This document shows positions 5,215 to 30,969 of a stretch of DNA of 64,000 nt, in pieces. A program made the translations under genes and the position numbers. The notes under the pieces are model-generated. The model was not told the DNA's origin, did not search any database, and worked only from the letters and a program-made list of their open reading frames with translations. The stretch lies in NCBI GenBank assembly GCA_000004985.1, contig GG738847.1. One strand, written 5' to 3'. Numbering within the stretch: the first letter of the stretch is position 1; every line of letters starts with the position of its first letter. This DNA comes from Naegleria gruberi. Its lineage: Eukaryota.

Positions 5215-5217
5215 TTT

Positions 5218-6568: not shown

Positions 6569-7112
6569 TTAGGGTTATTCACGAATTGAAAATGGAATGG
6601 AATAGAATGGAATGAAATTTTTCTAAAAAATTCTATCCAAATAATTCCGTGTCCAGAATTTTTTTTTAGAATTGGTTGTGAACGTTTATTACATTATTCA
6701 AACGTTGTAAACGTTTTAACGTTTTTTAAATGTTTAAAACGTTAAATATGTTTTTCTTGTAATAAGGAAACCATTATTGGAGGCCTCCAATAATCATCCC
6801 TATATTGTGATGATATAGTTGAGCTTGCTTAATGTCCTTAATATCTGTGTGGGCGGGAATCAAACTGATTTTCCATTTCTTTCAAATGTGTAAATACGTT
6901 TTCAACATTTAGAACGTTTCAAACGTTTTTAACGTGTTTAATCAGTTTAGTTTAATAAATTCTTTTCAAAAATTAAAAATAACCACCAACGAAATAATTG
7001 GAATTTTTTCACGGAATCATTCTGAATTATTCTAAAAAATTCTGAAAAATTCCGTCAATTCCATCAATTCCATCAATTCCGTCAATTCTTTCCAATTCGT
7101 GAATAACCCTAA
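6569..7112. mobile_element. MITE-like non-autonomous DNA element (about 545 bp) with 20-bp terminal inverted repeats
   Basis: Left end TTAGGGTTATTCACGAATTG (6569-6588). Right end CAATTCGTGAATAACCCTAA (7093-7112). These are perfect reverse complements. Subterminal GGAATGG/AATTCCATC 9-mer tandem copies sit on both ends. Internal AACGTT-rich palindromic blocks are at 6700-6745 and 6895-6950. No ORF. It lies in the divergent intergenic region between the 6489 start and the 7365 start. Confidence 0.6.
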
Positions 7113-7364
7113 CTAGTAATTGATTTGACATTTTTTTCTAAAGATTTTAGGTTCTTTTTACGTGGCCCATTTCCAGCCATACAAATGATCCTTTTTTCAA
7201 TTCAAGTTGAAAAATAAGTTGAAATTTACATGTTCATTTGAATTTATTGCTTTTATTTTGTCTAATATAGTGTAAATTTACTGTCCAACAGTGGAGTCCT
7301 TGTACAGGAAATTGTTGCCTTCCTTGCAAATGATGAAGATAAATCCAACATTGGTCAAATTCTC

Positions 7365-8126
7365 ATGATGAGATTAGTTTGCAAAGATTGGAACGAAACT
7401 TTTATTAATTCTCATGATTTCTGGTACAGTATGATGATTACCAATTTGGATAAGGGTATGAAAGCAAGAGGAATTGAAGAGAAGGTTGAAATTCTTTCAC
7501 ATCCCAATCGAAACAATACTCAGTTCATGTTAAATTGTATTCGAAACTGTTTTCTTGCTCAACAATCGATTGACTGTTTGAAATCAGTGGAAGCCGAACA
7601 ATCAATGTGTTATGAGCCTGCTATCCTTAACGAATCCAATGACGAATTAGTTTCCGAAATGATTCGCCAACTTTCACCTTACATCTTTATCCAGAAAACC
7701 TCTTTTGATTTCTTTTCTTATGATCAATCAGAATGTGAATATGATTTTATCATTCCAAATATTCAAGGAAATACCGAATTGACTGAACTATATTTTAAAG
7801 TTTATAGATGCGATTAAGGATGTGGTAATGGTTCACTACTAAGATCTATTGAAGTAGTTTTCCAAGAAGAAAAAGAAATTCTAAAAAATGAAGTTTGCTA
7901 CGAGTATGATGGCTCACGCTCAGAATACGTTGCAGATAAGGAGATGATTAAGGTTGTTATGGAGAGAATTGGGTTGAGTGCAGAAATGATAAAATCTAAA
8001 GCTTGTTTCGATGAATTTATGATTGCATTGTATTATAAAGCAGTTGTGGGAGTAATTCCTATTGCTCTATGTGAAAGAGATATGTTTTATATTGATAGAA
8101 CAAGCAGAATAAAAGATATTATGTAA
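7365..8126 (+). CDS. Hypothetical F-box-like protein; ORF interrupted by in-frame TAA at 7815-7817
   Basis: ORFs 7365..7817 and 7944..8126 are in the same frame (579 nt apart) with a single TAA between them. The frame is open upstream to 7266, encoding LVQEIVAFLANDEDKSNIGQILMMRLVCKDW (F-box-like L..EI..F and VCK.W) with no in-frame ATG. An ATG at 7330 is offset by 1 nt. Confidence 0.4.
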
Positions 8127-8197
8127 ACGGCCAATGCAAAACGACAAAATTATTGACAAAAAAAATAAAATAAAAGGAATATGGTTATGAACCAGAT

Positions 8198-9556
8198 TTA
8201 TTGCTTCTTATTAGCCTTCATTCTTTCCCTTAATTTATTCTTAGAATCGGATGAATTCATTTGAGCTTTTTGTTGTTCCATTCTCAATTTCTCGTAATGT
8301 TTTACTGTCCAGTCACCTCCTTCAATTGAGTAAAAGTCCATTGGATAGATTGGTCTCCATTCAGTGGCTGTTAAAGCTACCTCAGCTTCATAGGCAGTCA
8401 GTAATGGTTTATCAAAGAAGTGACCCCAATCGATTGAGAGACGAGGACAAGCAATTTGAATCCAACACTCAACATCGTGGAATAGTTGAAGTTTGCTTGG
8501 GAAAATTTCACTCAAAAGGAGAGAAACATATGGAATATTCTTTTCGTTCAGTAATCGTTCAATAGTTTCAAGAATTTTTGGAGAACCTTGTCTACCCAAA
8601 GTTCCTAGAATTACACCAAACTTTTTGGCTTTCTTTGCCTTTTCAATGGCATCTTGTCTGATGGAAAATAATTGTGGATGATCATAGTGTTCCTCTGTGA
8701 ATTTCTTTCCATATGGATCATATTTGTAATATTTCAATTCTGGATTTTGAATCATGACACTTTCCAAATGGAATCTACCATCTCCCAAATAAACCATAGT
8801 TTCAATTTGATGATTTTTAGCTAAATCTTTTGGACTTGTGCAACCCAGAACTTCACCAGGTGACAATGGTTTAACTTGAGGAATAAATACAGGAGTTGTG
8901 AAATGTTTGTCCAATTCTGCCTTGGCAGTTCTTAAACTTGAAACAAATTGAATAGTTGCAACCATAGCCATTTTGGTTTCTTTTGGAAAGTTGTTAATCA
9001 TTGATTGAACAAAATAATTAATATCAATTTGAATATCCACAAAAACGTATAGAATATTCTTAATGCAACAATCACTGACAGGAACAAGACAACTGTGAGC
9101 ATAATGCACCATGAAATCAGCACCCAAAGCTCTAGCAGTAAGATCATCTATACAGCATGCTCCGTATGTGACATCTCCCATAATTACTGTACTTGTTTCT
9201 GGACAAAATCTTTCAATAATATCACTAATCACACAACTAAACAAGAGCAATCCTTCAGGAAATTGCAAAGCAACTCTCTTTGGTTTAATTTGTTGAATTC
9301 TATGAATAGTTTTATGAATTTCAAAATTATAATTTGTTGGAAGTGTTTCCTTGATGAGTCTATTCAATTCTTCGTTTTCTAAAATTGAAGCAGGAACACT
9401 TTGTTGTAATTTAATACTAGATGAAAGATTAACTCCTGCATATGGATTTGATTGTTGTTGTTGTTCAGGAGTTTGTCCAATATTGTTGTTATTGTTATTA
9501 CTATCTTCCGATGATGAAGAAGAAACGGCAACAAGACTTGTTTCTTGATTTTCCAT
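8198..9556 (-). CDS. DPH1: Diphthamide biosynthesis protein 1 (2-(3-amino-3-carboxypropyl)histidine synthase subunit 1)
   Basis: 452-aa single-exon ORF. Hallmark DPH1 blocks [60 protein letters not shown] and [12 protein letters not shown]-terminal Ser/Asn/Gln low-complexity extension. Confidence 0.9.
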
Positions 9557-9757
9557 TTTTTTTTATTCGTTTCAAAATTTTTATTAATTTACAATTTTAA
9601 ATTATTATATACTAGTCATAATAATAATATTAAATTATTATCACTTCTTCATGGTTATTAATTTTTTAATTATAATTCTATATGGAGGACTTGATAGTTT
9701 TCTATTTTTCATTGTTATTATTTTAATAAAATTACTTGATGATTATTTACATATAAA

Positions 9758-10168
9758 TTAGACCTTTGGAATATCATTATATTCGGTTAGTTTAGAAATA
9801 CGATCGTTAAATTCATTGATTTTTTCTCTGTAGGATTTTTGAGCTCTTTCCTTGATGAGTTTCTTCTTTCTTTCCATCGATTTGGTTTCATATTTTTGTT
9901 CGGCTTCAGTCTTTTCCACTACAATTGCCTTTTGATTAGAGTTGTTATTATTTGTTTTATGTTGTTTGGTAATTCCGCCAATTGTTCCTGTTCTACCTTT
10001 TAATTTAAGTGGTCCTTTAATGACATTATCAAAGGAGAGGGAATATTTGTGTGCGTCATCATCGTGGTGGTGATGATCACTACCACTCTTCGGAGTAGTG
10101 GTTGCAGTTGTTGTTGTATTACTACTCGCTCTTTGATTGTTGTTTGATGAAGAAGTGTTTGGTTTCAT
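9758..10168 (-). CDS. FAM32A (OTAG-12)-like small nuclear protein
   Basis: 136-aa ORF. KGPLKLKG motif, Lys-rich middle and C-terminal EFNDRISKLTEYNDIPKV. These match the FAM32A family ends (KGPLKLKG ... DFNRHLDTLTEHYDIPKV). Confidence 0.75.
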   Translation of the reverse strand: MKPNTSSSNNNQRASSNTTTTATTTPKSGSDHHHHDDDAHKYSLSFDNVIKGPLKLKGRTGTIGGITKQHKTNNNNSNQKAIVVEKTEAEQKYETKSMERKKKLIKERAQKSYREKINEFNDRISKLTEYNDIPKV

Positions 10169-10334
10169 TTTTTTTAAACTATTTTTAGATCTTTAAAATA
10201 TTTAATATTATTGAACAAGAAGTAAAAACAACATTACAATGCAGTAAGTGAAATAGTTAAGGTTCAAGTTTTGCATTAGAATCTATTGAATCAATGTCAA
10301 AAGTCAATAGTTCACAAAAAACAATTCAAAAAAA

Positions 10335-12295: not shown

Positions 12296-15200
12296 TTATT
12301 GTTGATCTTGTTGCATGGATGGTGGTTGATAGACTTCATCTTGTTGCAATAACAATTCGTCGTCTTCATCTGATTCACTTTCTTCACCATCTTCGAGAAC
12401 TTGAATTTCACTTTCTTGTTGGAAGACATAGTCACCAGGCTTCTTTCTTTCACTCTTCAATTTCTTCAACTTTCTCTTACCCTTTCTAATGTAAACTCTA
12501 GTGAGAGTCTTGATTCTTTCGACAGCTTGTGGATCTCTCATAACCAAACCAACGAATGATAATACCAAGAAAATGATAGTGATAGCAATCAAGATAATTG
12601 GTGAAATATAGTAGGCCTTATAGGAGAAACCATAATTTTCCAAAGCAGTAGCAACATTTTGATTACTTTCTTGATACTTTCTAATTTCAACAGTGTACAT
12701 TAATTCGACAGCCCATCTCACTGGAGAAGAACAAACCAAAACCAATGTATACCATTCCTTAGACATGGTACGAACTGTTGGTTGAACACCACCCAACAAG
12801 GCACACAAAATAATGTACATTACACCAACAAATTCAGCATGAGTTCTTTGAACGAAAACTGAAATGAAATAGCCAAGAGAACTGAAAACAATTTCGAATA
12901 ATAAGAAGAGTCCATAGTATGTGTAAAATTCAGCTTCAGGATTAACGAGGATATACCAGAAAGTAACAAAGACCAATGGATAGATCAACAAGGAAGGAAT
13001 TTCACCAGTCAATTTACCAAGGAAGTAACTCATCTTGTTGATACCATTCTGAGCTTCACGTCTATAGAGTTCCTTATCAGCACCAAAACATTTGAGTGAA
13101 GATTGCATAGCAGCAATGGCAAGAGCAGAAACTGTAACAATACTCATTGGTGCAATCTTATCAATTCTTGGCAATGAACATTGATTACTAATAAATGTTG
13201 GACACAACTTTTGAAGAGTTGATGAAAGAGGACCAATAAAGTCCATGTTAAAGTAGAAACCTCCAATAATTACAGCAAGAGCAAAGTGGAAGAAGAAATC
13301 AAAGAAGACACCCTTGTAGTGACGACTCAATTGAAGCAAAGCACGAAGAGAGAATAAGAGATATTGACCCAAGAACGCAATTGGCTTTCTTTGTCTTTCC
13401 TTAGCAACTTCACTGCCCAACAAAACTTGTTGTGGATCAATAACAGAAGCACCAACTTCTTCATCATCTTCTTGTTCTTGTTCTGATTGTTGAGTTTCAT
13501 TACCATTTCTTGATTTGAGCCATTTCTTTTCATTTTCTTCCTTCTTCAAGTCCCACAAGTGCAACAAACGTTCTGGTTCAAAGTTTGGATCACCAGGTCT
13601 TTCAACATTACCCAAACAAACATCAACAAAAAAGTCTGGAGGATTTTCATAGTTTGGACATTTGAAGCCAATTTCTTCAAAGAATCTCAAAGCATCCTTG
13701 GTTGGACCATTGTAAACAATGCCACCATTCTTACCCATGATAATACAATCGTCAAAGAGGAGGAATACATCATTTCTTGGTCTGAGCATGGTAGAAACAA
13801 CTGTAGTACCACTTTCAGCAGCCAACTTGAAGGCCTTACACAAGAATTTCTTTCTTTCGAGTGGAATTTCATCGAATGGATTATCGACAAATAAACAAAC
13901 TGGATCAGCAACCATTTCAAGAGCCATGTTAACAAAGACTCTGAGTTCTTCATCGAGACCGTGCTTCTTTGATTTACCAATTGTATCATACATAAAGTTT
14001 TCAATACCCAAAACCTTACATGTCTTTTCAACACGTCTACCAACTTGACTGTATGTATAATAACTTGGCAAACGAGAGTGACCAGCAAATCTCAACAATT
14101 CGTGAACCTTCAATTCCTTAGCCATATCAAGTTGCTTTGGGGCAAAGCTGATAATATTTCTGAATTCGTGCGGATCCTTAATTTGTTCATTAATCATAAT
14201 TTTACCATGAACGAAACCCAAGTGATGTCTACCAGAAAGAGTATTGAGCAATGCAGAAGTTGCTTCAGAATCAACACCAATAATACATGTAGTTCTTCCG
14301 TGATAGACACGACCAGTGACACCTTCGAAAATAACTTCTTCACTCTTCTTTCTGATATATGACAAATCCTCAAAGGCATAATCAATTGTAAAGTTCTTCT
14401 TTGAGAATGGTGGTTCATTGACGAGAGAACCAGTACTATCATAATTGAATTGTTCATTTCCTTGAATAAAGTTGGCAATATTAATACCAATGTTGGCAAG
14501 ACCATTTTGTCCTGAGATTTCTTGGTCTTGTTTAATCTTCTTTTGCTTCATCTTCTTCTTCTTGTAAGAGGCAGTGACACATCTGACAACAACGAAAGTG
14601 ACCAAAACGAGGAAGACAACAACGAACATTAACAAGATACCCAAATAGAAGGATTGTTGCTTGGCAGAACCTTCTGGACAATAGGAGAACCATTGACAAC
14701 GTTTAGGATAAGTAGAGCCAGCAGCACAGTGATAACCAGATGGACACAACAACATTGAGTTGGTATTAGGGCAATAATAACCAGCAGTACAAGCAAGTGG
14801 TTCCTTAGTACCTCTTGGGCAATAATAACCATCTTCACACAAGACTTTGCTTGACAAGGTTGGACAATAGTAACCTTCTGGACAATAGTGCTCATCACTA
14901 CCATAAGTACCAGTTGGACAGTATTGAGTTCTGTTACCAATTTGTTCCAAACATGGAGTTGGAGTCATAGAGTATGGAGTTTCACAATAGTTCAATGCAG
15001 GACAAGCATTTACGAGAGTAGTGCCTGTAGTGTCAAGTCCTTGAGTAGCTAATGGACAATATTGACCATTTCTACAAGTGTATAATTGACTTCTAGTTTT
15101 TCTTGCAAGATAACCTGGTGGTACTGGAATAGACATCAAAGGGTTCAAACAAATTTGACCATCAGGACATCTTTGCTCAGTAGAGGAACCTTCAATTCCA

Positions 15201-17403
15201 CAAGTTGTTTCAAATGTTGAGGAAGGTGAACAAGCAGTAGGTGCAGTCATGGCCGAATCTTTACATTTGAATCCAACAGGACAAGGTCTTCTACGACCTT
15301 CGTTATTGGTTGGACAGTAAAATCCTGGTTCACATTTAAAGACCATTGTTGGTCTAATTGTGTGATAACCAGCAGAAATAGAAACAGTATTGGCGTAACC
15401 TTCAGCAAGAGTTTTCCAGAATCACCATATCTTGGACAAGTCCAACCTCCATTACACATTGAGAAGTAACCAATAAAATCGAATGCAGTATACTTGGTTG
15501 GATATTTCTTACAAGCTTCAGTAAATTTAGTCAATGAAGATGGAGGATTTGAAGAAGCCAACAAGGTGCAAATATCTTGCAATCTTATTCTGGCATCAAT
15601 ATCAAAGGCCTTTCTAGAAAGGACAGCAAAGATGTGTTGTGCATTTTCAGAAACATAAATGTCATTAATTTTACCATCACTGTTCAATAATGCAGTTTGT
15701 TGCAATGTAAATAAGCTTGAACTAGAAGTGGAAGCAGAAGTGTCAGTACAAGCATACTCTTGGAAGGAAAATACTTCAATACTTTCTCTTGTGGCAATGT
15801 TGATGGTGTGATAAAATGTTGAATAGGCATCAGTGATAGCAGTGTCACTTGTTTTGTACATTCCAATAACCATCTTTGAAGGAACAGCTGATGTGGTTTT
15901 CAAATCTGATTCCTTATTAGGTCTGTTAGTACAGGTTCCACTCTTTGAGTATTGAGGTTTGGTAGTTGATGTATAAGAAGTTGAGCATGTTGTGTCAGCT
16001 GGTATACCAACGGCCTTGTATATGCCAGCTGGGTCAGAACTAATATCAGTTACATCCTGACTTGCCATTTCTGGAAGGTTAAAGACAAATAATCTTGGGC
16101 CGAAAGCATTTGCAGAGGCTGTAGTTGAAGCAACACCAACAGCAACCCAAACAGATTGGGAAGTCTTAGCAAGAGTACCATAACATTCAGTAAATGCACT
16201 CACAGAATAAATACTTTCACCAGAGACACCATGTGTATAAATGATTGAGGTCTTCTTTGTTAAGTCAACAGGTGAGTCATTTGGCGTACCAACGAGTTGA
16301 ATCAAATTGACTTGTGACTTGGATTGAATTAAAAGAAGAGGTCTACTGGCTTTAACTGAATTACAGTCAACCTTTGATGAATATGTTGGGTCAGCACCAA
16401 ATTGTCCATGAGCAAAACCGAAAATCTTTCTTTCCTCAGTTTGGTCAGCAAATGCCCATTTATAAAGTGTAGAACCCTTGTAAATGATAATACCATTGGT
16501 AGAAGTAGAAGTACCATATGAGAGAACAGCCATATGAGTTGCAGTTCCAAGAGTATCAATGTAGGCAATTGTTTGCAAATCTTGCACAAATTCGCTTGAG
16601 GACAATTTGGTTGTTGTATCAATGGTAAGAGCAATAGTTTTAGAAGATGAAACTGTGAGAGTACCAGTAGTATCCAATTTAAGAACCAATAATGTTTGAG
16701 TTGACAAGGTAACATAAATTGTTGCCTCAGTAGAGCTAGTTCTATAGACAGCCATCTTACTTGGTTTATCTGTTAAAGCAGTTTTAGCATCAAGTACTTG
16801 ATAAGAGTAGGCCAATTGTTCAGTAGTCATATCAAGAACAAGCAAATGTCTATTGGTCAATACTAGTAAATATTGTTTGGCACCATCAGCTGACATTTCC
16901 AAAGGTTTAGCAGCTCTAACAAAGAAACAACGATTGTTTTCGGATTGTGATGATTGATCAGTAGTGGTAACATTTCCTCCAGAATAGTCTTCCTTATAAA
17001 TTTTAACAATATTATCAACATCTTGATCTTTCACACAAATCATGTTATTTTCAGTTGATGTAATTGGTGTCTTGTCTGTTATTTTGGTATATAAACATTG
17101 TGCACCAGTGGCATCACAATTAAAAATGTCAGGATCTCTAAAAGTGATTGGTTGACTTGCTCTAAAGTTATTATATGTACACCATGATGGTCTTGAAGTG
17201 GATAAAGATGGATCACATAATCCAAAGGCTGATTTAACTTGTTCACCAGATAATGCAGCACACCAGTCTGGAGGTGTGGCAGCAAGAGTTGAAGCACAAC
17301 TCAAAGTAATCATCAACAAGATGGAGACGATTAAATATCGAACAGCAACACGTTGTTGTGCTTGTCCTTTCAACAATGGTCTATTATCATTACGTATCAT
17401 CAT
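12296..17403 (-). CDS. ABCG-type (NBD then TMD) half-transporter-like protein with huge extracellular N-terminal domain and degenerate ATPase motifs; two ORF segments joined across a frame break near 15350-15410
   Basis: Upstream segment 15247..17403: signal peptide MMIRNDNRPLLKGQAQQRVAVRYLIVSILLMITLSCASTLAA, then a 700-aa Ser/Thr-rich ectodomain. Downstream segment 12296..15346: multiple CxxGxYCP cysteine repeats (CEPGFYCP, CPEGYYCP, CEDGYYCP, CTAGYYCP), then TM FYLGILLMFVVVFLVLVTFVVV. ABC domain with degenerate Walker A IIGVDSEATSALLNTLSGR (Lys replaced by Ala), degenerate signature HGLDEELRV and Walker B CLFVDNPFDE (Glu replaced by Asn). Typical ABCG block STMLRPRNDVFLLFDDCIIMGKNGGIVYNGPTKDALRFFEEIGFKCPNYENPPDFFVDV. 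Six-helix TMD. Acidic tail. Confidence 0.8.
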
Positions 17404-19543: not shown

Positions 19544-22500
19544 TTATTGCGTTACGTTTATTGGGCCAGATACTTCTGGTGTTACTTCCTCCTTTTCCTC
19601 AATAGGAGTGGAATGTGAAGATAAGAATCCGAGAGCTTGTAAAGATTGATTATTCACATCTTCTTGTTTCAATTTTTTCTTCGCAAACGAGCCTCTTACA
19701 GTTGGACCTTCAACACTCTTATTTGGTCCAATTCCATACAAGTTTTCCAAGTTATCATAATTTTCATGTTGATCTGCTTCAGATTCTTGACGAACTGAAT
19801 CTTCATTATGCTTGCTATTTGAAATTTTACCAACTTCAAGAGATGTGTCTGTCTTTTCATCTGCTCCTTCTTCAGAATGATGAGAATCAGTTTCATATTG
19901 TAAAGGATCAACGTGATGCTTCCTCTTGAGCAGATAAGTTTGACATAAACCTTTTCCTTTTACATCAATTTTACGTTCTTCAAATTCCATTCCCATGTCA
20001 TGAACTCTTTCATAGGTAGCTCTAGAAATTTGAATTCTGCCTGGTTCACCAGTTGACTCCATTCTTGAGGCTGTATTAATGGTATCTCCCCACAAATCGT
20101 AGGCAAACTTTTTGATACCAATCACACCAGCAACAACTGGTCCTGTATGTAGACCCACACTATGTAGTTTCAATTTAAGAAAATTTCTTAGTAATTACAT
20201 TATAAATTATATACTTACCGAATATTAACATTAGTATTCTCACTTGAATTATATTCCTTGATTACTTGAAGTGTATCAATGGCAAATCTCAATGATCTCT
20301 CAGGGTGATCTGATTGAGCATTCAAGTTGATACCACCAACACAAAAATAGGCATCTCCAATAGTTTTAATCTTTTCCAAATTATACTTTTCAGTGAGTAC
20401 ATCAAAACCATTTACAATTGCATTCAACATCAACACAAGCTCAGAAGGATTCATTCCAGAGCTGATTTTTGTAAATCCAACCATATCTGAGAAGAAAACT
20501 GTTACATCATTGAACTTTTCAGCAATGAATGTTTCACCTCCCTTCAATCTTGAAGCAACACTCTCTGGCATAATATTTAACAATAATTGTTCAGATTTTT
20601 TCTTTTCTTCAGCTAATAACATATTTTGTTTCTTTTCAGGTGTGAAATCTTTAACAAAGCAACTAATAATTGGTTTCTTATTGGCTACACTAACTGAAAG
20701 ATTAACCTTGGATGGAAATTTACTTCCATTCTTTCTGACACATTCCACTTCAAGTGTTTCACCAAATGACTGGGTTGCATTTACCATTTGCTGGATAATT
20801 TGTGCTAGTTTTTGTCTATTTGGGTCCATAGGGTCAAATAGCTTGGTCAATTGCTCGCCCAAAACATCACTATTATTCATACCATACATCTTTTGAGCAA
20901 CAGGATTGAAAAGTTCAATATCACCTTGTGAATTACATAAAATGGCTCCATCAACTGCAGAATTCAAAATTGCCCTCACCTTACCATCTCCACCACCATC
21001 TTTTTCCTTGCTTTTTTCTGATGAAGAGGCCCTAGATTTAGACGAGAGATCATTGAAAAGTACAAATTGTTTAAGAGCATCATTGGAATCAATATACTCC
21101 ACAGGTAAGTAATTGAGTAAACTTCTTAATTGTTGAATCTGATCCCAAAAATCTCTTATTAACACATATGCAAAATATGATAGTGATATTAATGCAATGT
21201 ATCCTATAACAACTGCAATTATGGATAATGTAAAACTTGGAGTCGATGCATATGTAGAATATAAATCAAAAATGTCTATTATTCTATCCATAAGGGCATT
21301 TGACATTTCACTTCCCTTAAGCAAGGTCAAGAATAAATTGTCTATAGCGTAATTACTGTAATATACATCTTCGTTCAATCTTAATGACACAGTACTAATT
21401 TCTGTAACGAGCTCATCCAAATTGGTGCAATAAAATGTGGAAACGTTGGTACAATTTGTAATTGGAGAAATAAGAATATCAATATCCTCATAAGTATTCA
21501 TAAATCTACCACCATATCTTAATACTTCCCATGAAGAAGCAATAGTTCCAAATAGTGATTTCATTTGAACGTGGTAAGTGCTAAGGTCTGATTGTGAGAG
21601 CAAACGATCATCATTCAAACTACTCTTGGAAGTATATCTCATAAAACTAAATAATTCTGTCATACGGTAGGCTGCTCTGTTTGTATTTCTGAAAATTTCA
21701 ACTCCAGAAGTAACGTATTTAATCGCTAAACTTTCAGTATTAGAAATAATTTGCATATCAACGAAAAGCATTGTAATGCAAAGAACAGTTACAATGATAC
21801 TTGACACAACAACGAGTGAAATGGTTGTCTGAGGTTTTGAAATAATTCCATTCTCTTTGATATCCATTTCTTCATCAGACTTCTTGTCGAGACCTTGAAA
21901 TATTTTACCAACTTGATCCTTGGGTAAGGTTGTGGCAATAAACTTAATAGATGATCTCAATGACCTCAAATGTACTAACAATATCATAACCACAATTGCT
22001 GCACAAACACCATATACAACAACTGCAGCTACGTAGAAGGCAATAAATTGAATGTTCATATTTTGAACAGATTCAGAATTTCTACGCAAAAATAAATCAC
22101 AATAAGCATCAAAAGCTGAGCTACCTCCATTTCTATTTGTCCATAAAAACATGAAATCACCAGATGTTATTGTAGTATTAAAGCTATTTGCTTCCTTCTT
22201 CAAATAAGTCTTGGCATATTTGATTAAACTATCAGTAATTTCTGAAATGGAAGCATTTTTGGATTGAATGTAATCGGAAGGAATTGTTGAATCATTACTG
22301 TAATAGAGAACTGGTGTAACAAGAGTATATATAGGATTGGTATAGTCTGCTATGGATTCAGAAGACATTGTACCAGAGGCCTCAGCCAATTTTAACTCAT
22401 CCAAAAGTCCCTTATACTTTTCCATTCTCTCTAATTTGTCTTGGAAAAAGTCTGTAACATTAACCACATCATGTAAACCAGAGGATATAAGTTCATTCTT

Positions 22501-24953
22501 ATAGGTTGGATAGAGTATCATAAAGTTTTGGAATACTCTAATTTCCCTCAAAAGCAATCTAGGTACAGCAGATGGCATGCAAACATAGTAGGAATTCTTA
22601 ATGTTGCTAGAGAGCTGACCAGCAAAGGAAACTGACATACCAATACCAATAGATACAATACACATTGAAAGAAAAGATAGAATCAGGAAAAAGAATAAAT
22701 AAATATTGTGTGTGTGTTGTCTGTTAAGAGAAACTCTAAACTGGTATTCCTTCTTTTGGTTGCCTACAATATTTTCAATGCCACTGAATTCATCAATTCT
22801 ATCTTCGTAGGAATGACTAATGCCACTTCTTGCTCCAGATGTTTTTTGTACATCAACGCTTGCTTGATTAGTAAATCCTTCACCAAAGTAATTACTTTCT
22901 GGCAGTACTCTATTATTTTTTCCAATCTTTTTTGGAACTGAGGTCTTTTTTGTTTCTTCTTCTTCAATATAGTTGGCTTCTTCATACATTTCATATGCTT
23001 GATCTCTTTCAAATTTGACTTCTTCTAAGAATTTTGCATATGTTCTCAATACAGTCTTATTGTTACCATAGTTTGACATGAGGCCCTTAAGAGTAATTCC
23101 AACTTCCCTTGTGATGGAAGTAATTTGTTTGTTGATACTTTCTACCTTCTCGAACGAAATATTATCATTAATAAATTCTTTAAAGAAGGACTTGTGGAGT
23201 GAGGAAATAATTTGTTGTTTCTTTTCAACTTTTTGTAAAATATGTTTAATTTCTAGCAATCCTTTGCCACTGTCAAGAATTGTCTCAATTTCTTTAGTTC
23301 TCTCTACAATAGTAAATCTTTGTAACAGAGAGGGTTGATTTTTCTTTGCCTGAATAAATTTGTTAGATAAATGAAAATACTTTAAATACGTACTTTTTCT
23401 AAAATTGCAAGTGATTTTTGTTGTCCTGTTTCAAAAAAGTTACCACAAATAATGGAGGCTGCAATTAATAAATCAACATTTTGGTAAGTTTTTTGATTGG
23501 CAACACCCTTAATAAAACATTTGGAAAGTTCCAAATCACTGAGATTACCCAAAGTAGAGGTAGATCCTTTCTTCATACACCATTTTAAGAAGAGGAATAG
23601 TCTTCTTGAGCGATTGGTTTCTTCAATTTCTTGTAAGATTTTGATAGACTCCTTTTCTAGAATGTATTTAGGATTCATAATGTCATCATTACTCAAATTG
23701 TCTAATCCACGTTCCAAGTGATTCATAAATATTCCTCTCAGATCCTTATTAATGTATCTAGTCCATAAATCCATGCACAACCAACCAATGAAGGAAAATA
23801 TTATCATTACACCAATAGTCATGCCTAACAGTCCTAAACCAAGACCATACTCATTTTGAGTATTCACATATGTGGAAACAACACCACACAAAGAACCTCC
23901 AAGAGTGGCACAAACAAAACCAAAGTAAACAGCATTCTCCCATCTTCTATAAAAAGGCATTGAAAATAAAAAGAAAATAGTGATGCAAAAGCTAGCTACC
24001 ACAAAGTAAACTGCTTGAATTACCACAAATTGATCTCCTACAACATTAATCAACAAATAGTAAATTTGATAGCTTAGAACGCTTAAAAAATAGAGATGAG
24101 CATCAAATGTTAAGAAGGGAGTTTCACTCCTTGGATTTGCATCTGTTGTTGTGTAAAAACCAACAAAGGTTGTGAAAATTGTGAGCACATATGACAAAAG
24201 ACCAATTATAATGAAAGCCAAATTGGTGCCCGAATAACAGGCCACGTCAGGAAATCTATTCAAAACTTGTTCAGCTGTTGTTGAAGAAGTGACCAGCACT
24301 GCTGACGAATAATTACAATTCAAAAACCCCAACATGAGCCAACTGATTGGCAAACTTGTTAAAGAGATTGTTACATTCAATATTCTAGTAATGACTTTGA
24401 TTTTGGGCCAATACTTGCTCATTCTGTAGATAGATCTGTAGGCAATTATTAAAATAATGACTTGAAGTAGCTGTATGGCAAATATAATACCTGCAATAAT
24501 GACCGCTGCAGTGTAAGGTAAATGTTCAAAACCAAATGTTAGAGGATAATTAACAGCTCTTGCTATCCACCTTCCATACTCGCCAAAGTTATAACTAGGT
24601 TGAATGGCAATCACTAATGTTGCCCATATGAAATATAGTCTGATGAGTAGAGTTTTGATATATTCATTTCTTCCAACTAATTCTTGTCTGGTTTGTAAAT
24701 TAAGAAGGAACATGAAGGATCTCTCCTCTAACTGAGTAACAATAGACTCATTATAGTAATCTTCCAGTGATGATGTGGTACTACCCACTTGTGAAGCATT
24801 CACAACACTACCTGCTGCATTGGCATCATTAGGTTGTCTTGTTGAAGTAATATAACTTCGCTTATCTATTGAGGCAACATTGGTAGAAAAGTTATAATCT
24901 AGCACACTTCCGGATTCACCATCTGAACCAATAATACTTCCTCTCCTACTCAT
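19544..24953 (-). CDS. Class III nucleotidyl cyclase (adenylyl-type residues) with PAS domain and large N-terminal polytopic membrane region; 3 exons (24953-23394, 23349-20219, 20159-19544)
   Basis: Exon 1: about 9 TM helices, ending ...LAILEK before donor GTACGT. A 44-nt intron (23350-23393) joins in frame to exon 2, which begins AKKNQPSLLQRF.... Exon 2: coiled coil, 4 more TM helices with large loops, and a PAS-like block KVRAILNSAVDGAILCNSQGDIELFNPVAQKMYGMNNSDVLGEQL. Cyclase core FSDMVGFT ... EKIKTIGDAYFCVGG ... NVNIR, then a 59-nt intron (20160-20218). Exon 3: VGLHTGPVVAGVIGIKKFAYDLWGDTINTASRMESTG. The metal Asp (FSDM, IGDAY), the Lys in KTIGD and the N/R in TINTASR are all present. Confidence 0.8.
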
Positions 24954-25492: not shown

Positions 25493-26026
25493 TTATTTGT
25501 GCTCAACGTTATTACTATTTCCATTAATGTTTTCCTCATTACTGCAACAGTTGGTTTGTTCCGTTGAGGTTGTCTTAATGGTTAGAGTGGTGGTAACCTC
25601 AGGTAATTGTTCCTTTCTCCACTCTTGCATACCCCCTTTTAATTGATAGGCTGTGTATCCTTGTTGGGAAAGCCACTTTACTGCTGCAATAGATCGATGG
25701 GCACTCAAACAAATAGCATAAACAGGCTTATTCTTGTCTAATTTGGGAAGAATACTTTGATTCATACGTGATGAAAAACTGAAAACATTGGGAAGGAAGG
25801 AACAATTTATCGATCCTTCAATATGACCATTATTATATTCTGACTCGGTTCTAACATCAACAATTTGAAGGGAGTATTGACTTGTTTGATTTAATTGATC
25901 AAGTTGGTGAGCAGGTAATTCTGGAACTGATCCGAAAGTCCACCACCAAGGACCTGATGATTTTAAATTATTGGATGAATTATTGTTGTTATCAGTAGAT
26001 GATGATGTGTTGTCGTTTGAAGACAT
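25493..26026 (-). CDS. Single-domain rhodanese-like (sulfurtransferase/phosphatase fold) protein
   Basis: 177-aa ORF. VDVRTESEYNNGHIEGSINC. Active-site loop PVYAICLSAHRSIAAVKWL (Cys-X4-Arg-Ser). C-terminal YQLKGGMQEWRK. N- and C-terminal Asn/Ser-rich tails. Confidence 0.65.
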   Translation of the reverse strand: MSSNDNTSSSTDNNNNSSNNLKSSGPWWWTFGSVPELPAHQLDQLNQTSQYSLQIVDVRTESEYNNGHIEGSINCSFLPNVFSFSSRMNQSILPKLDKNKPVYAICLSAHRSIAAVKWLSQQGYTAYQLKGGMQEWRKEQLPEVTTTLTIKTTSTEQTNCCSNEENINGNSNNVEHK

Positions 26027-27013: not shown

Positions 27014-30000
27014 TTAAAGTTCAGAATCATCATCACCAATCTTTTTCCTCACTGTTGACTTCTTTAACGAGACACCACCACCAAGAATGTTTGTACCAGC
27101 TTTTGGATCGTCCTTCTTGGCAGTTGATGCTGTGAGACGACTTGTTGTACTTGCATTTTTGAGATCTTGTTTAAGTTTTTCCTTCTTAAGCTTTTCTTCT
27201 TCTGCCTTCTTTTTCTTTTCGTCGGCCTTTTGTTGTTGAATATTCTTGTCGGCAGCTTGTTTAAATTGTTGAACAAAGGCATCAATCATTTGGAAGAATT
27301 TGTCTGGTTCTTTCATAAGATCGTCCTTAGTTTCATTGTACAATTCTGCGAGCTCTGTTAATTGATTCTTCATAGCTTCCATATCTTCCTTGATCTTGTT
27401 AATGGTATTGTCAACCTTCTCACAGAATGGTTGCATTTTTTCAACAAATTTGTCTCCATCAAGTTGTTCTTCAATGGCTTCTCTAATTTGAGTTTGTAAA
27501 ATGTTTTGTCCTTTTTTAAGTTCTTCCAAATCATCTTCCAAAGAGGAAATGTTCACTCTGGTGGCAGCTTGAACGTGTTCTAATTCTGTATCAAAACCAG
27601 CAACTTCTGGTTCGTTGTCTTGGACAAACTTGACAATATATTGGAGGAGAGAACTCTTACCGTCACCAGTCTTAGTATCATTCAACTTGGCAAGTGATTT
27701 GAGTTTAAAACCATAACTGATCTTATTCTTTTGTTTACCATTCAAAAAGTTACCAATTGTAAGAATAATACCCAACAATCTGATGAAATTCTTAGAGTTT
27801 TGCATTTCTTTACAGGCTAATGTAAGATTTTGAATATCAGGTCTAATTTTACCACTGATATCAGGGAATTTAAATTTAAATTCCCACGCATCAAGTCTTC
27901 CTTTGAGATTTGGAATTCCATCCATGACTTTGAAGAATTTATCAGGTTCTGCTAATTCATCCATTGGTCCATCATATGTATTGACAGTATCAATTTCTTC
28001 TCTCTCAGGAGCAATTTGCTTAATTGTACCAACATTATCAGAAGTAACAACAGCTTCATCGAGAGCAATAATAGCTTTCTTCAATGATTCATAACTTGTA
28101 CCTCTCAATGAACCTAATTGAAGGGAAACAGCATAACTACGTTTTGCATCCAACATTGATTTAACTTCCTTCTTCTTTTCTGTTGGCTTAACTTCTTTGT
28201 TTGGATCTTCCTTTTTCTTTGTAGAGAAACATGATGTCAAATGATCCAAATCTATTTCCTCAATAATGGAATTTGTCTTATTTGCAATACCTTTTGTCAT
28301 AAATACGGTATTGGTAAGTGTTGTCTTATTAATTTGGTCAAAGTGAACATTTCTGGTTGCTTCTTTTGGAGCTCTATCTGGAAGAACAGGTAATCCACCA
28401 CCAACAGCAGCACCTCTTCCAAAACCTCCTGGAACCATTGGTACACCTCTTCCAAAACCTGGTGGCATAGGAACACCCATACCAGGTGGCATTGGTACAC
28501 CTCCCATTCCTGGAGGCATTGGAACACCACCACCAGGAGGAGGAGGCACACCACCCATACCAGGAGGAGGAGGCACGCCTCCCATACCAGGTGGAGGATT
28601 GGAACACCTCCCATTCCTGGAGGCATTGGAATACCTGATCCTAAAGGAGGAGGAACACCGCCCATACCAGGTGGAGGAGGAACACCAAAACCTGGAGGAG
28701 GAGGAATACCACTATCCATTCCTGGAGGCATTGGAATACCTGATCCTGGAGGTGGTGGAATACCACCAAAACCTGGAGGAGGAGGAACAAATCCCATATC
28801 ACCACCAGGTGGAGGAGGAACAAATCCTGAGCCACCAGGAGGTGGAGGAACAAATCCAGTAGATCCAGGAGGTGGAGGCACGCCAAAATCACCACCAGGA
28901 GGTGGAGGCACAAATCCTGAGCTACCAGGTGGAAGTGGTACTGAACCACCAGGTGGAGGAGGAACGAATCCTGTCGAACCAGGTGGAGGAGGAACAGATC
29001 CAGTACTAGCTACTGTGCTAGTTGGAGGTACCTTAATAGGATTACTTTTGATAGATGAAATTTCTTTTTCGATGGCCGCAATAGTCTCCTTTAGCTTGGT
29101 TTCGTTTTCTTGATGCTTTTTGAGATCTGCTTGTAACTTTTCAATCTTTGATTTTCCTTCCTTTTCAACCTTTTCGGTTTCGTCTGTCACCTCCTTAACT
29201 TGATTTTTAACATCATCGTCTTGATCGCTTGAGTCTAATTTCTTTGTCCAAGTTTCCTTTTCCTCATGGAGCTTAATTTTTGATGCCACAGATTCAGAAA
29301 GTTCCTTACTGATTGTCTCTATTTCAACCTTCAGGTCTTCAATCTTCTTCTTGTTATCTTCACATTCTTTTTGAATATTTTGTTTCTCCGATTCGAGTTT
29401 TTGAACAAGTTCATTAATAATTTGCTCATTTTGTTGTCTTTCGTACTCAATTTTGTGTAACTTTTCATTCTGTTCTTGTTTAAATTTGTATTGAGAGTCT
29501 TCTAAATCAATAATTTGACTTTGGTTCAATCTGACTTGTTCTTCCAACTTGATTTCCAAATTAGTCCAATATTCTACATTTCCTGTTTCTCTGGACTGCT
29601 TTAAACTTCTCTTAACAAGTGCTAACATATTTTTCCAAGCTTCAAGAACGGTTTCTCTGTCCAAATCTCCATCTTTCATCTTTAAAACAATGTTAAGTAA
29701 TCTTTGAAGGATGTTAAGCATACTGGTCATGGATGCTTCGTTTAACATCAAGTTCAAAAGTTTTACAATTTCAGTTGGGTCACTTAAATCTTTAAGGACA
29801 GCGTGAGCATCTCCAAGATCACTGATTTTGTCTTCGAATCTTTCAATTTCTTTACTCAGATCCATTAATGTTTCTTCATTTTCATTACCTCCATAAGAAT
29901 TGGCAAGTTCATTCTTCAATTCATCTACTAACTCAACCATACCTAAATTTCTCATTTCCTTCTTGATGAGAGATTTACTACCTTCATCAGGTGCATTTGT

Positions 30001-30969
30001 CAAAATTGCATTCACTAAAATCATGACAGCCAATTTGTAATCCAAATCTCTTGTTTCTTGAACTCTTTGAACAATATCAAAGAATCTTCTCTTTTCTCTT
30101 TTAACCAATTTATAGTGATTAAAAGCATTCATAACAAGGGAGAAACCTTGATATGACCATCCACAAAGTAATGCTAATATTCTCAGACATTGACTTGCTG
30201 TGTTAACATTGTAAGTATCAAGAATTAAAGCCAAATTTTTAACAGCTTCAGTTTCGGATAAAAATTCATCTGCACCGATATTGGTATGTACAAGTGCACG
30301 TAAAGAGCTCACACACAAAGCTTGTTTTTGCAATTCTTCTTGATCACGTTTCTTTCCCAATACATTTGTCAATGCTAAACATTCTCCCAAAGCTCTAATA
30401 CCTCTTTCCATAATAAATTGGTTGACCCAACGTGTTGGAGCTGTTCTAATAAGAACATGAATAGTTTCCAAAATTTGTAAATCATAACCTCTTTGTTCCC
30501 ATAAGGCTAACATTTCACCAACACCTTGTTCAGTTGTTTCTTGGTCATCAATATCACGTTTGTTTTGTTTATATCTTTTCAATTCTCTAAATTTTGAAAT
30601 GAGTGGCTTGTTAGCAGATTCGTACTCTCTAACTTCTTCCGAAACACCAATATCAATCAACATTTCAATAAATTGTTCATTGATATCATCAGGAGAAATA
30701 TTGGAAGGAATTTCAGAGTGATGATCTAATGTTGAATCACCAGAATGATCCGTAAATGTACTAGCTGCTGTTGTATAACTTGTTGAGTCATCACCAAGAG
30801 TTGCCGTGTTGATACTCTGTTCTACTCTCTTCTTGTATTCATCCTTCTTCTTCTTTCTGTCCTTTTTGATTTTTTTTTTCAATTGATCTTTTACAGTTTT
30901 GGCGGTTTGATTGTTTTGATTTTCAATACTGTTTGTATCCACAGAAGAACCTATTAGTTTCTTTAACAT
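27014..30969 (-). CDS. Diaphanous-related formin (GBD/FH3 - coiled coil - FH1 - FH2 - C-terminal basic/DAD-like tail); apparent 1-nt frame break inside FH1 near 28599
   Basis: 890-aa ORF 28297..30969: armadillo-like GBD/FH3 (WVNQFIMERGIRALGECLALTNVLGKK...), coiled coil, then FH1 repeats GFVPPPPGGSGFVPPPPGG.... FH1 continues in another frame in ORF 27014..28585 (MGGVPPPPGMGGVPPPPGGGVPMPPG...), followed by a complete FH2 (KSSLLQYIVKFVQDNEPEVAGF...). The plus strand reads GGAGG-ATTGG at the break, where all neighbouring units read GGAGGCATTGG. Confidence 0.9.
28380..29010. repeat. Nucleotide-level tandem repeat array encoding the FH1 poly-proline units (27-30-nt periodicity)
   Basis: Repeated units of the form CCACCAGGAGGTGGAGGCACAAATCCTGAG or CCTGGAGGCATTGGAACACC. 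The antisense strand gives spurious E/H/Q-rich ORFs (for example 28599..28862). Confidence 0.6.

What the first reader, a model, noticed from the sequence alone, without database searches (positions are those of the whole stretch)
19544..24953. Very large multi-domain adenylyl-type class III cyclase: N-terminal polytopic membrane domain, 4 further TM helices, PAS and catalytic domain, across 3 exons
The catalytic core is split by a 59-nt intron but is otherwise canonical: FSDMVGFT, KTIGDAYF and VGLHTGPVVAGVIG...WGDTINTASRMES. It carries the adenylyl-specifying Lys and the metal-binding Asp residues. Upstream in the same transcript (44-nt GTACGT...TTCAG intron, frames compatible) there is a 520-aa domain with about 9 TM helices. 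Further TM helices with large loops and a PAS-like module follow. Membrane sensor plus PAS plus cyclase is a prokaryote-like layout. It does not match any of the described D. discoideum enzymes (ACA with 12 TM, ACG with a CHASE domain, ACB/AcrA with His-kinase and receiver domains, or sGC).
Basis: partly seen in the sequence, partly recalled or inferred. Interest (0 to 1): 0.6.

Follow-up and report, generated by a model that had tools for sequence, protein, structure and literature searches.

The report
Naegleria membrane-sensor adenylyl cyclase gene
This is a real three-exon gene of the amoeboflagellate Naegleria gruberi (not Dictyostelium) for a 1768-residue membrane-bound adenylyl cyclase, and it is one ordinary member of a large gene family already present in the databases.

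Summary
On the minus strand, three exons (24953-23394, 23349-20219, 20159-19544) are joined by a 44-nt and a 59-nt intron. They give an uninterrupted 5307-nt coding sequence for 1768 residues.

Domains found:
- Guanylate_cyc, E 8e-57
- PAS_9, E 3e-15
- TPR_TmcB, E 7e-15
- 12 predicted transmembrane helices, arranged 8 + 4

All six canonical class III catalytic residues are present, including the adenine-specifying Lys/Asp pair.

The interpretation needs correcting in three ways:
- **Organism.** It is Naegleria gruberi. The gene is 99% identical to a partial, mis-spliced NCBI "predicted protein". Comparison with Dictyostelium cyclases is therefore beside the point.
- **Layout.** It is not specifically prokaryote-like. 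The first ~1250 residues are a eukaryotic TmcB/TmcC-type membrane body: an 8-TM domain, TPR repeats, then four TM helices carrying two extracytoplasmic helical bundles.
- **Uniqueness.** N. gruberi has at least 11 such paralogues. The family also occurs in N. fowleri, N. lovaniensis, Willaertia, Acrasis and Pharyngomonas. Trichomonad transmembrane adenylyl cyclases probably share the layout.

Homologues that encode the junction region in one uninterrupted exon or ORF support the exon 1-exon 2 fusion. No transcript data were available.

One point of mild interest: the Dictyostelium TmcB family, reported as a regulator of cAMP signalling, is here covalently fused to a cyclase.

The parts
19544..24953 (-). 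Whole coding region of the gene: 3 exons and 2 introns, 1768 codons plus stop.
   Evidence: The product is collinear over its full length with paralogues and orthologues P0002, P0003 and P0004.
23394..24953 (-). Exon 1, aa 1-520.
   Evidence: ORF. The donor GAAAAA|GTACGT was located. An in-frame stop lies 12 codons upstream of the ATG.
23350..23393 (-). Intron 1: 44 nt, phase 0, GTACGT...TCTAAC...TTCAG.
   Evidence: There is no gap at this junction in the alignment with homologues. The homologous region is uninterrupted in the L001 ORF and in the first exon of the L002 gene.
20219..23349 (-). Exon 2, aa 521-1563 plus the first two bases of codon 1564.
20160..20218 (-). Intron 2: 59 nt, phase 2, GTAAGT...TACTAAG...ATAG, inside the catalytic domain.
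   Evidence: Splicing restores NVNIRVGLHTGPVVAGVIG, which is identical in the paralogue P0002.
19544..20159 (-). Exon 3: last base of codon 1564, aa 1565-1768, and the stop codon.
24756..24953 (-). N-terminal disordered cytosolic region, aa 1-66.
   Evidence: pLDDT is below 50 for residues 1-66. The region is poorly conserved.
23778..24671 (-). TmcB-type polytopic membrane domain, aa 95-392. It has 8 predicted TM helices and a beta-hairpin loop at 213-231 flanked by conserved Cys213 and Cys239.
22930..23777 (-). Cytosolic helical/TPR region, aa 393-660, spanning intron 1. The Pfam TPR_TmcB match covers aa 552-654 (window 22948-23256).
   Evidence: Pfam PF25474, 55.5 bits against a cutoff of 27. 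Helices are seen in both models.
21181..22698 (-). Second membrane block, aa 738-1243: TM9, loop 1, TM10, a short cytosolic loop, TM11, loop 2, TM12.
   Evidence: Hydropathy. AlphaFold mean pLDDT is 82, and the TM helices continue into long loop helices.
22033..22641 (-). Extracytoplasmic loop 1, aa 757-959. Predicted helical bundle with a beta-hairpin insertion. Cys777 and Cys937 are conserved.
21238..21759 (-). Extracytoplasmic loop 2, aa 1051-1224. Predicted helical bundle. The NCTN motif, Cys1153 and Cys1161 are conserved.
20641..20982 (-). PAS domain, aa 1310-1423.
   Evidence: Pfam PAS_9 E 2.8e-15 and PAS E 4.4e-9. The closest solved relatives are the FixL and DosP heme-binding PAS domains (E 1e-7), but the proximal His is replaced by Leu.
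20524..20640 (-). Helical linker (cyclase transducer element), aa 1424-1462, KKQNMLLAEEKKKSEQLLLNIMPESVASRLKGG.
   Evidence: It aligns with the segment preceding the C2 domain of AC9. There is a weak HNOBA C-terminal hit at 1429-1455. The segment is nearly invariant in the family.
19925..20523 (-). Class III nucleotidyl cyclase catalytic domain, aa 1463-1642, including intron 2. Key residues: D1475, D1519 (metal), K1515, D1585 (adenine), R1564, N1592, R1596.
   Evidence: Pfam PF00211 E 8.4e-57. It aligns to both C1 and C2 of AC9. Residues were checked.
19547..19924 (-). Poorly conserved C-terminal tail rich in polar and charged residues, aa 1643-1768.
   Evidence: Not conserved among paralogues. 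The only Pfam match is a sub-threshold one.

Best explanation
This locus is a protein-coding gene of Naegleria gruberi with three exons. It encodes a 1768-residue, 12-TM, receptor-type class III adenylyl cyclase.

**Architecture (shown).** The protein is a complete TmcB/TmcC-type membrane body fused to a cytosolic PAS domain, a helical transducer segment and a single catalytic domain. The membrane body has three parts:
- an 8-TM domain;
- cytosolic TPR repeats;
- four further TM helices that carry two extracytoplasmic, predicted four-helix-bundle loops.

**Catalytic residues (shown).** The single catalytic domain contains all six canonical residues: two metal-binding Asp, adenine-specifying Lys and Asp, and transition-state Asn and Arg.

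**Mechanism (inferred).**
- From what is established for single-domain class III cyclases, it should act as a head-to-tail homodimer with two active sites that convert ATP to cAMP.
- The most likely control route starts with conformational changes in the membrane body, from ligand binding to the extracytoplasmic helical bundles and/or to the 8-TM domain.
- These changes would pass down the TM12 helix, through the PAS domain and the coiled-coil transducer element, and reset the geometry of the catalytic dimer.
- The PAS domain may add a second, cytosolic input.

**Context.** It is one of at least 11 paralogues in N. gruberi and belongs to a family found across Heterolobosea.
For: **Gene model**
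- Splicing gives an open 5307-nt CDS.
- Both junctions are gap-free in the alignment with P0002 (N. gruberi, 52% identity over 98%), P0003 and P0004.
- The homologous region across junction 1 lies in one uninterrupted ORF in L001, and in one exon (aa 1-788) in N. lovaniensis L002.
- Introns of the homologues are of the same type, roughly 44-60 nt with GT(A/G)(A/T)GT...YAG.

**Organism**
- 99% identity to an NCBI N. gruberi protein.

**Domains**
- Pfam Guanylate_cyc 8e-57, PAS_9 3e-15, TPR_TmcB 7e-15.

**Catalytic residues**
- D1475, K1515, D1519, R1564, D1585, N1592 and R1596 align with the corresponding residues of AC9 C1 and C2.

**Family**
- 332 representatives were found. Of 30 long members, 28 have TPR_TmcB, 28 PAS and 25 the cyclase domain.

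**Structure**
- Both models are confident: pLDDT 84 and 82.

**Topology**
- 8 + 4 TM helices place the N-terminus, TPR, PAS and cyclase on one side of the membrane.
- The three Cys-pair loops (C213/C239, C777/C937, C1153/C1161, all invariant in the four close homologues) fall on the other side.

**Activity precedent**
- The cyclase domain of the similarly built Trichomonas TMACs has adenylyl cyclase activity (PMC2914791).
Against: - No transcript or cDNA evidence could be obtained for either intron or for the start codon.
- The NCBI model of the same gene uses the same donor after ...ILEK but a different, distant acceptor. It also carries a 19-residue N-terminal extension that I could not find in the window.
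- There is no biochemical evidence for this protein.
- Neither the ligand nor the sensing role of the membrane body is known.
- The four-helix-bundle resemblance is generic. Designed bundles and talin score nearly as high, and no sequence-level match to a bacterial sensor family was found.
- The PAS domain lacks the heme-ligating His of its closest solved relatives, so its cofactor is unknown.
Confidence: 0.85

Rival explanations
1. Two separate genes. One is a 523-aa TmcB-like membrane protein ending at the TAA at 23382-23384. The other is an independent PAS-cyclase gene starting downstream. On this view intron 1 does not exist.
For: The exon 1 ORF does run into an in-frame stop just inside the proposed intron. 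No transcript data are available. Many short family hits exist in the database, though they look like fragments or prokaryote-style gene calls.
Against: - The first ATG in the exon 2 frame lies around aa 612, inside the TPR_TmcB domain (552-654).
- The alignment with three full-length homologues has no gap at the junction.
- The same region is one continuous ORF in L001 and one exon in N. lovaniensis.
- 28 of 30 long family members carry both the TmcB part and PAS, and 25 also carry the cyclase domain.
- The intron has canonical GTACGT, TCTAAC and CAG signals.
Confidence: 0.04
2. The gene is a decaying or catalytically dead paralogue, as about 46% of Trichomonas TMAC genes are.
For: The family is large and recently duplicated. 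Pseudogenes are common in the analogous Trichomonas family (PMC2914791). The reference annotation of this locus is partial.
Against: - There is no stop or frameshift in 5307 nt.
- All catalytic residues are intact.
- Conservation with the paralogue is strongest in the functional domains, with long identical runs in the PAS-to-cyclase part.
Confidence: 0.05
3. The enzyme is a guanylyl cyclase or a dual-specificity cyclase rather than an adenylyl cyclase.
For: Pfam PF00211 covers both activities. Receptor guanylyl cyclases are among the good matches.
Against: The specificity positions are Lys1515 and Asp1585, as in the C2 domain of AC9 (KIKTIG, YDIWG). They are not the Glu/Cys pair of guanylyl cyclases (the Glu/Cys rule is established knowledge of class III cyclases). 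Trichomonas TMAC domains make cAMP.
Confidence: 0.06
4. The TmcB-type membrane body is not a ligand sensor. It would be a transporter or channel, or merely a dimerisation and localisation anchor (for example targeting the flagellar membrane). Regulation would come from the PAS domain only.
For: - The 8-TM domain has no solved homologue, so its function is open.
- Channel-cyclase fusions are cited for Plasmodium, Paramecium and Tetrahymena (reference 15 in PMC2914791).
- A Chlamydomonas TmcB-related protein was detected in cilia (PMC11244166).
Against: - The two loops have the fold and the TM-flanked topology of bacterial sensor domains.
- They carry conserved Cys pairs.
- The loop sequences diverge faster than the cytosolic parts, as expected for ligand-binding regions.
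Confidence: 0.3

Closest known systems
Heterolobosean TmcB-PAS-cyclase paralogues and orthologues. Examples: N. gruberi P0002 (1749 aa) and D2UYX7, D2VY33, D2VQM4, D2VSW1, D2VWE2, D2VR27, D2VZ61; N. lovaniensis C9374_007057; N. fowleri FDP41_011611; Acrasis kona 'adenylate cyclase'.
   Same: - Same full-length architecture and collinear alignment. P0002 is 52% identical over 98% of the length.
- The junction sequences are the same.
- The catalytic motifs are the same.
   Different: - This locus is a distinct paralogue. The loops and the C-terminal tail diverge.
- Its database model (P0001) is partial and mis-spliced, so the full-length product given here is not in the databases.
Trichomonas vaginalis transmembrane adenylyl cyclases (TMACs; Cui et al. 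2010, PMC2914791), with Tritrichomonas P0005 as the sequence compared.
   Same: - Similar size: P0005 is 1599 aa, and TMACs are about 1450-1700 aa.
[quoted passage not shown]
- hhalign links the TM domains: probability 88.5%, E 2.7e-6, at collinear positions.
- The TMAC cyclase domain has adenylyl cyclase activity.
   Different: - P0005 has no Pfam TPR_TmcB match.
- The sequence match covers 25% of the query at 28% identity; the Pfam matches of P0005 are PAS and the cyclase domain.
- TMAC genes have no introns.
- Homology of the membrane parts is probable but not proven.
Dictyostelium TmcB/TmcC family (Pfam PF25474; TmcB was described as a regulator of cAMP signalling in sexual development by Muramoto et al. 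2005, pmid 15817229, cited in PMC12750705 and PMC8516963).
   Same: - The N-terminal polytopic domain and the TPR repeats are homologous. The profile hits D. firmibasis P0147 with iE 1.4e-9 (TM domain) and 8e-17 (TPR).
- P0147 matches TPR_TmcB at 5e-46.
- P0147 also has four later TM helices with long loops.
   Different: Dictyostelium and chytrid TmcB proteins have no PAS domain and no cyclase domain. In Naegleria the TmcB body is fused to them.
Mammalian-type 12-TM adenylyl cyclases (AC1-9; Dictyostelium ACA).
   Same: - Class III catalytic fold. The domain aligns with AC9 C1 (E 2e-31) and C2 (E 1e-34).
- Twelve TM helices in total.
- A helical transducer segment precedes the catalytic domain.
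   Different: - There is one catalytic domain, so a homodimer is needed. The mammalian type has C1 + C2 forming a pseudo-heterodimer.
- The TM helices are arranged 8 + 4 with TPR repeats between them, not 6 + 6 flanking C1.
- PAS and TPR domains are present.
Bacterial four-helix-bundle periplasmic sensor domains (Tar and Tsr, PcaY, NarQ, TorS, Adeh_2942).
   Same: - The bundle sits between two TM helices whose helices continue into it.
   Different: - Sequence identity is only 2-11% and there is no Pfam match.
- Generic designed four-helix bundles score similarly.
- Two such bundles occur in tandem in one chain.
- This is a resemblance, not demonstrated homology.

Membership tests
Class III nucleotidyl cyclase (Pfam PF00211) | Profile match above the curated threshold | tested here: met
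   192.1 bits against a cutoff of 21.9, covering aa 1463-1642 and profile positions 3-182 of 183.
Class III nucleotidyl cyclase (Pfam PF00211) | Two metal-binding Asp residues | tested here: met
   D1475 (FFSDMVGFT) and D1519 (TIGDAYF) align with the FADIVGFT and LGDCYY Asp residues of AC9 C1.
Class III nucleotidyl cyclase (Pfam PF00211) | Transition-state Asn and Arg, and the phosphate-binding Arg | tested here: met
   N1592 and R1596 (WGDTINTASRM) align with GDTVNIASRM of AC9 C2. R1564 (NIRVG) is also present.
Adenylyl-specific (as opposed to guanylyl-specific) class III cyclase | Lys and Asp at the two purine-specifying positions | tested here: met
   K1515 (EKIKTIG) and D1585 (FAYDLWG) align with KIKTIG and LYDIWG of AC9 C2.
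Adenylyl-specific (as opposed to guanylyl-specific) class III cyclase | Measured cAMP synthesis | not testable with these tools
   Only a precedent exists: Trichomonas TMAC domains have adenylyl cyclase activity (PMC2914791).
PAS domain | Profile match above the curated threshold | tested here: met
   PAS_9 scores 56.9 bits (cutoff 27). PAS scores 36.8 bits (cutoff 22.6).
Heme-binding FixL/DosP-type PAS | Proximal heme-ligating His in the F-alpha helix | tested here: not met
   In the FixL alignment, the position of the His in RSRHDSY is Leu in this protein (PNRQKLAQ). No His is conserved there in the paralogues.
TmcB/TmcC family | TPR_TmcB (PF25474) match above threshold | tested here: met
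   55.5 bits against a cutoff of 27, covering aa 552-654.
TmcB/TmcC family | Homologous N-terminal polytopic membrane domain preceding the TPR | tested here: met
   The profile of aa 80-1270 hits the TM domain of D. firmibasis TmcB/TmcC protein P0147 (iE 1.4e-9) and of chytrid P0156 (iE 2.1e-12), at collinear positions.
TmcB/TmcC family | Four further TM helices with two long loops after the TPR | tested here: inconclusive
   The hydropathy peaks have similar spacing: P0147 at 708, 958, 1177 and 1358; P0156 at 799, 990, 1080 and 1282. Sequence similarity in this region is weak (P0156, iE 1e-3) or absent (P0147).
TmcB/TmcC family | Role in cAMP signalling | not testable with these tools
   Known only from citations of Muramoto et al. 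2005. The paper itself is not held.
Trichomonad TMAC family | [quoted passage not shown] | tested here: met
   The layouts are compared.
Trichomonad TMAC family | Sequence homology of the membrane part | tested here: inconclusive
   hhalign probability 88.5%, E 2.7e-6, over 158 columns. The HMMER profile gave no significant hit and P0005 has no TPR_TmcB match.
Mammalian/ACA-type 12-TM adenylyl cyclase | Two catalytic domains (C1, C2), each following a 6-TM block | tested here: not met
   There is a single Guanylate_cyc match, and the TM helices are arranged 8 + 4.
Bacterial 4HB_MCP / NIT / CHASE-type sensor domains | Sequence-profile membership | tested here: not met
   [not shown]

The most novel reading that the evidence does not exclude
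This is a gene-fusion (Rosetta-stone) reading. The TmcB/TmcC membrane body is widespread in eukaryotes: Dictyostelia, chytrids, Chlamydomonas and Carpediemonas. It has no known biochemical function and no solved structural homologue.

The proposal is that this body is an ancient eukaryotic receptor module whose output is cAMP synthesis. In Heterolobosea, and probably in Parabasalia, it is covalently fused to PAS and an adenylyl cyclase. In Dictyostelium the free-standing TmcB would regulate cAMP signalling by acting on a separate cyclase.

If so, the Naegleria fusions would be a tractable way to find the ligand and mechanism of the whole TmcB family.
Probability: 0.3. Interest if true: 0.5.

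Novelty: new member of a known kind. Interest (0 to 1): 0.25.

Why it matters
- **Annotation.** This locus gets a corrected full-length gene model. The public model is partial and skips about 245 residues.
- **Family definition.** One sub-family of the known Naegleria cyclase expansion can now be described as a complete TmcB-type membrane body fused to PAS and an adenylyl cyclase.
- **Lead on TmcB.** The fusion is a modest functional clue for the uncharacterised TmcB family, which literature cited here links to cAMP signalling in Dictyostelium sexual development.
- **Overall.** Otherwise the gene is an ordinary paralogue in a large family. It is not a new kind of cyclase.

Tried and rejected
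- **Homologue search with the N-terminal 580 aa.** It returned nothing even though true homologues exist, probably because hydrophobic words swamp the word index. I replaced it with the exhaustive profile search.
- **Exact-sequence look-ups of P0001 and P0002.** Neither is on record, so intron positions in the N. gruberi paralogue could not be compared. I used L001 and L002 instead.
- **Spliced protein in the representative search.** I worked around this by supplying the exon 1 and exon 2 pieces as separate rows.
- **Search for the 19-residue N-terminal extension of the NCBI model, MTFYTKYFRSS....** It is not present on the minus strand of the window. ATG 24953 is kept as the start, unverified.
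- **Junction-spanning query for transcript-derived identical proteins.** Only a 38%-identical fragment came back, so there is no transcript evidence.
- **Heme-sensing PAS hypothesis.** Rejected because the proximal His is missing.
- **afdb50 fold library.** Unavailable.
- **Papers.** Fritz-Laylin et al. 2010 and Muramoto et al. 2005 are not held. The figure of about 108 Naegleria cyclases is from my own memory. The figure I can cite is at least 81 (PMC9928731).
- **N-glycosylation sequon density as a topology test.** Uninformative in this Asn-rich protein.
- **Dictyostelium origin.** Rejected and by the roughly 33% GC content.

Full report
**1. The observation**

Three long ORFs lie head to tail on the minus strand: 23382-24953 (523 aa), 20215-23259 (1014 aa) and 19544-20173 (209 aa). 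The DNA is about 33% GC, so ORFs of this length cannot be chance.

- The first gap has GAAAAA|GTACGT...TCTAAC...TTCAG|GCAAAG. This is a 44-nt intron, 23393-23350, phase 0.
- The second gap has AATATTCG|GTAAGT...TACTAAG...ACATAG|TGTGGG. This is a 59-nt intron, 20218-20160, phase 2.
- Removing both gives a 5307-nt CDS with no internal stop, encoding 1768 residues.
- The second splice restores NVNIR-VGLHTGPVVAGVIG in the middle of the catalytic domain.

**2. Domains**

Pfam finds:
- Guanylate_cyc at 1463-1642 (E 8e-57);
- PAS_9 at 1320-1423 (E 3e-15) and PAS (E 4e-9);

Hydropathy gives a cluster of TM helices between residues 99 and 389, and four more at 738-756, 960-978, 1032-1050 and 1225-1243.

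**3. Organism and database status**

The best database hit is "predicted protein, partial [Naegleria gruberi]" (P0001, 1084 aa, 99% identical). The next is a full-length N. gruberi paralogue (P0002, 1749 aa, 52% identity over 98% of the query) with the same Pfam domains. Then come a metagenomic protein (P0003) and N. lovaniensis C9374_007057 (P0004, 1792 aa). The window is therefore from Naegleria gruberi, not Dictyostelium.

P0001 is a faulty model of this very gene:
- it joins ...AILEK directly to LSSNIKNSYY..., skipping about 245 residues including the TPR_TmcB domain;
- it stops at ...GGGDGK, just before the PAS domain;
- it differs from the window at two residues (D>N, S>G), so the window is another haplotype, strain or assembly.

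**4. Is the exon 1-exon 2 fusion real?**

No transcript evidence could be found. Comparative evidence is strong.
- The four-way alignment has no gap at either junction: ILEK|AKKNQPSLLQRF against LLEK-ATKNLPNLIQRF.
- In the metagenomic Naegleria-like contig L001, the homologous region from residue 31 to 1585 is one uninterrupted ORF.
- In N. lovaniensis L002, residues 1-788 lie in one exon.
- Those homologues have introns elsewhere, of the same type: roughly 44-60 nt, GT(A/G)(A/T)GT...YAG.
- A separate downstream gene would have to start inside the TPR_TmcB domain.
- The ATG at 24953 follows an in-frame stop 12 codons upstream. The extra 19 N-terminal residues of the NCBI model are not found in the window.

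**5. The family**

I built a profile of residues 80-1270 (everything before the PAS domain) and searched it exhaustively. It finds 332 cluster representatives at E up to 1e-3 and 94 at E up to 1e-30. About 25 of them are 1400-1800 aa long and match the profile end to end.

Of 30 long members, 28 carry TPR_TmcB, 28 carry PAS_9 and 25 carry Guanylate_cyc.

Named members come from:
- N. gruberi (D2UYX7, D2VY33, D2VQM4, D2VSW1, D2VWE2, D2VR27, D2VZ61, D2W3W6, D2UX70). With P0002 and this gene, that makes at least 11 paralogues;
- N. fowleri, N. lovaniensis, Willaertia magna, Acrasis kona ("adenylate cyclase") and Pharyngomonas kirbyi.

So the family spans Heterolobosea.

More distant hits lack PAS and cyclase domains:
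- a Dictyostelium firmibasis "TmcB/TmcC TPR repeats domain-containing protein" (P0147);
- a chytrid protein (P0156).

The profile matches both their N-terminal TM domain and their TPR region, at collinear positions. Their later TM helices have similar spacing.

Tritrichomonas P0005 has PAS and cyclase domains and the same pattern of TM helices. hhalign links its TM domain to the profile (probability 88.5%, E 2.7e-6), but it has no TPR_TmcB match. The roughly 123 Trichomonas TMACs were described in 2010 as proteins of about 1450-1700 residues with N-terminal TM helices, a conserved cytosolic domain and one C-terminal cyclase domain with adenylyl cyclase activity (PMC2914791).

**6. Catalytic domain**

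The domain aligns with both C1 and C2 of AC9. It combines:
- the C1-type metal-binding Asp residues, D1475 and D1519;
- the C2-type adenine-specifying K1515 and D1585;
- N1592 and R1596;
- R1564.

A single domain with the full set implies a homodimer with two active sites and ATP as substrate. This is inferred from established knowledge of class III cyclases.

The segment KKSEQLLLNIMPESVASRLK before the domain aligns with the equivalent helix before AC9 C2. It gives a weak HNOBA C-terminal hit. This fits a cyclase transducer element.

**7. PAS domain**

The closest solved relatives are the heme-binding PAS domains of FixL and DosP (E about 1e-7). The proximal His is Leu here, and no His is conserved there in the paralogues. 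The cofactor or ligand is unknown.

**8. Predicted structure and topology**

*Exon 1 product* (pLDDT 84, pTM 0.79):
- a disordered N-terminus (residues 1-66);
- eight helices of TM length;
- a beta-hairpin loop at 213-231;
- cytosolic helical repeats.

*Residues 521-1310* (pLDDT 82):
- the rest of the TPR region;
- a disordered linker (about 660-711);
- four TM helices, each continuing into long helices, so that each extracytoplasmic loop forms a helical bundle.

*Topology.* With 8 + 4 TM helices, the N-terminus, TPR, PAS and cyclase all fall on one side of the membrane. Each of the three loops on the other side contains exactly two Cys, and these are invariant in the four close homologues: C213/C239, C777/C937 and C1153/C1161. 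This fits one disulfide per extracytoplasmic loop (inference).

**9. Mechanism**

- Shown: the gene structure, the domain order, the catalytic residues and family membership.
- Inferred: a homodimeric adenylyl cyclase whose activity is set by conformational signals. The signals would come from the membrane body (the loops and/or the 8-TM domain) and pass through TM12, the PAS domain and the helical transducer to the catalytic dimer. The PAS domain may be a second input.
- The main rival is that the membrane body is an anchor, a transporter or a targeting device rather than a sensor.

**10. Comparison with what is known, and novelty**

Naegleria is known to hold a very large cyclase repertoire, at least 81 in the genus pangenome (PMC9928731). 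This gene and its paralogues are already in the databases as predicted proteins, some auto-named [quoted passage not shown]. The finding is therefore a new member of a known kind, with a corrected gene model.

The mildly interesting point concerns TmcB. Papers citing Muramoto et al. 2005 describe it as a regulator of cAMP signalling in Dictyostelium sexual development. A TmcB-related protein was detected in Chlamydomonas cilia. Here the entire TmcB body is fused to an adenylyl cyclase. That fusion suggests a functional link between the TmcB family and cAMP synthesis.

Noticed in passing
window 27014-30969, minus strand: This looks like a formin gene. The ORF at 28297-30969 has Drf_GBD and FH3 domains. 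The ORF at 27014-28585 has an FH2 domain (E 2e-80). The two ORFs overlap by 289 nt in different frames, so there is an intron or a frameshift in the FH1 region.
   Followed up: no
window 12296-17403, minus strand: Two overlapping long ORFs of 718 aa and 1016 aa. The downstream one has ABC-2 transporter membrane domains, so this is probably one ABC transporter gene split by an intron or a frameshift.
   Followed up: no
window 25493-26026, minus strand: A small rhodanese-domain gene (177 aa, E 5e-17) lies immediately upstream of the cyclase gene on the same strand. About 540 nt separate it from the cyclase ATG.
   Followed up: no
window 19544-24953 compared with NCBI protein P0001: The public N. 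gruberi model of this gene is partial and mis-spliced. It skips aa 521 to about 765 and ends before the PAS domain. It differs from the window at two residues (D>N, S>G). It carries a 19-residue N-terminal extension that is not found in the window. The window therefore comes from a different haplotype, strain or assembly.
   Followed up: partly
L001 (ENA ERZ27315067 k141_1905646), 5001-10197: This metagenome contig carries a Naegleria-like homologue with prokaryote-style gene calls. Its 1586-aa ORF ends artificially at a 44-nt intron after ...KKFAYD. That intron position differs from intron 2 of the window gene.
   Followed up: partly
N. lovaniensis contig PYSW02000002.1 (L002 and locus tags C9374_007051 and C9374_007057): Two family members, P0016 and P0004, are reported with the same longest-contig length (1,082,833 bp) and locus tags only six apart. 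This suggests local clustering of paralogues.
   Followed up: no
P0157 (MMETSP transcript, 2356 aa) and P0086 (N. gruberi D2W3W6, 2426 aa): These are longer variants of the family. P0157 has TPR_TmcB directly followed by a PAS domain at 668-752 and no cyclase match. P0086 has a truncated cyclase match and about 900 extra C-terminal residues.
   Followed up: no
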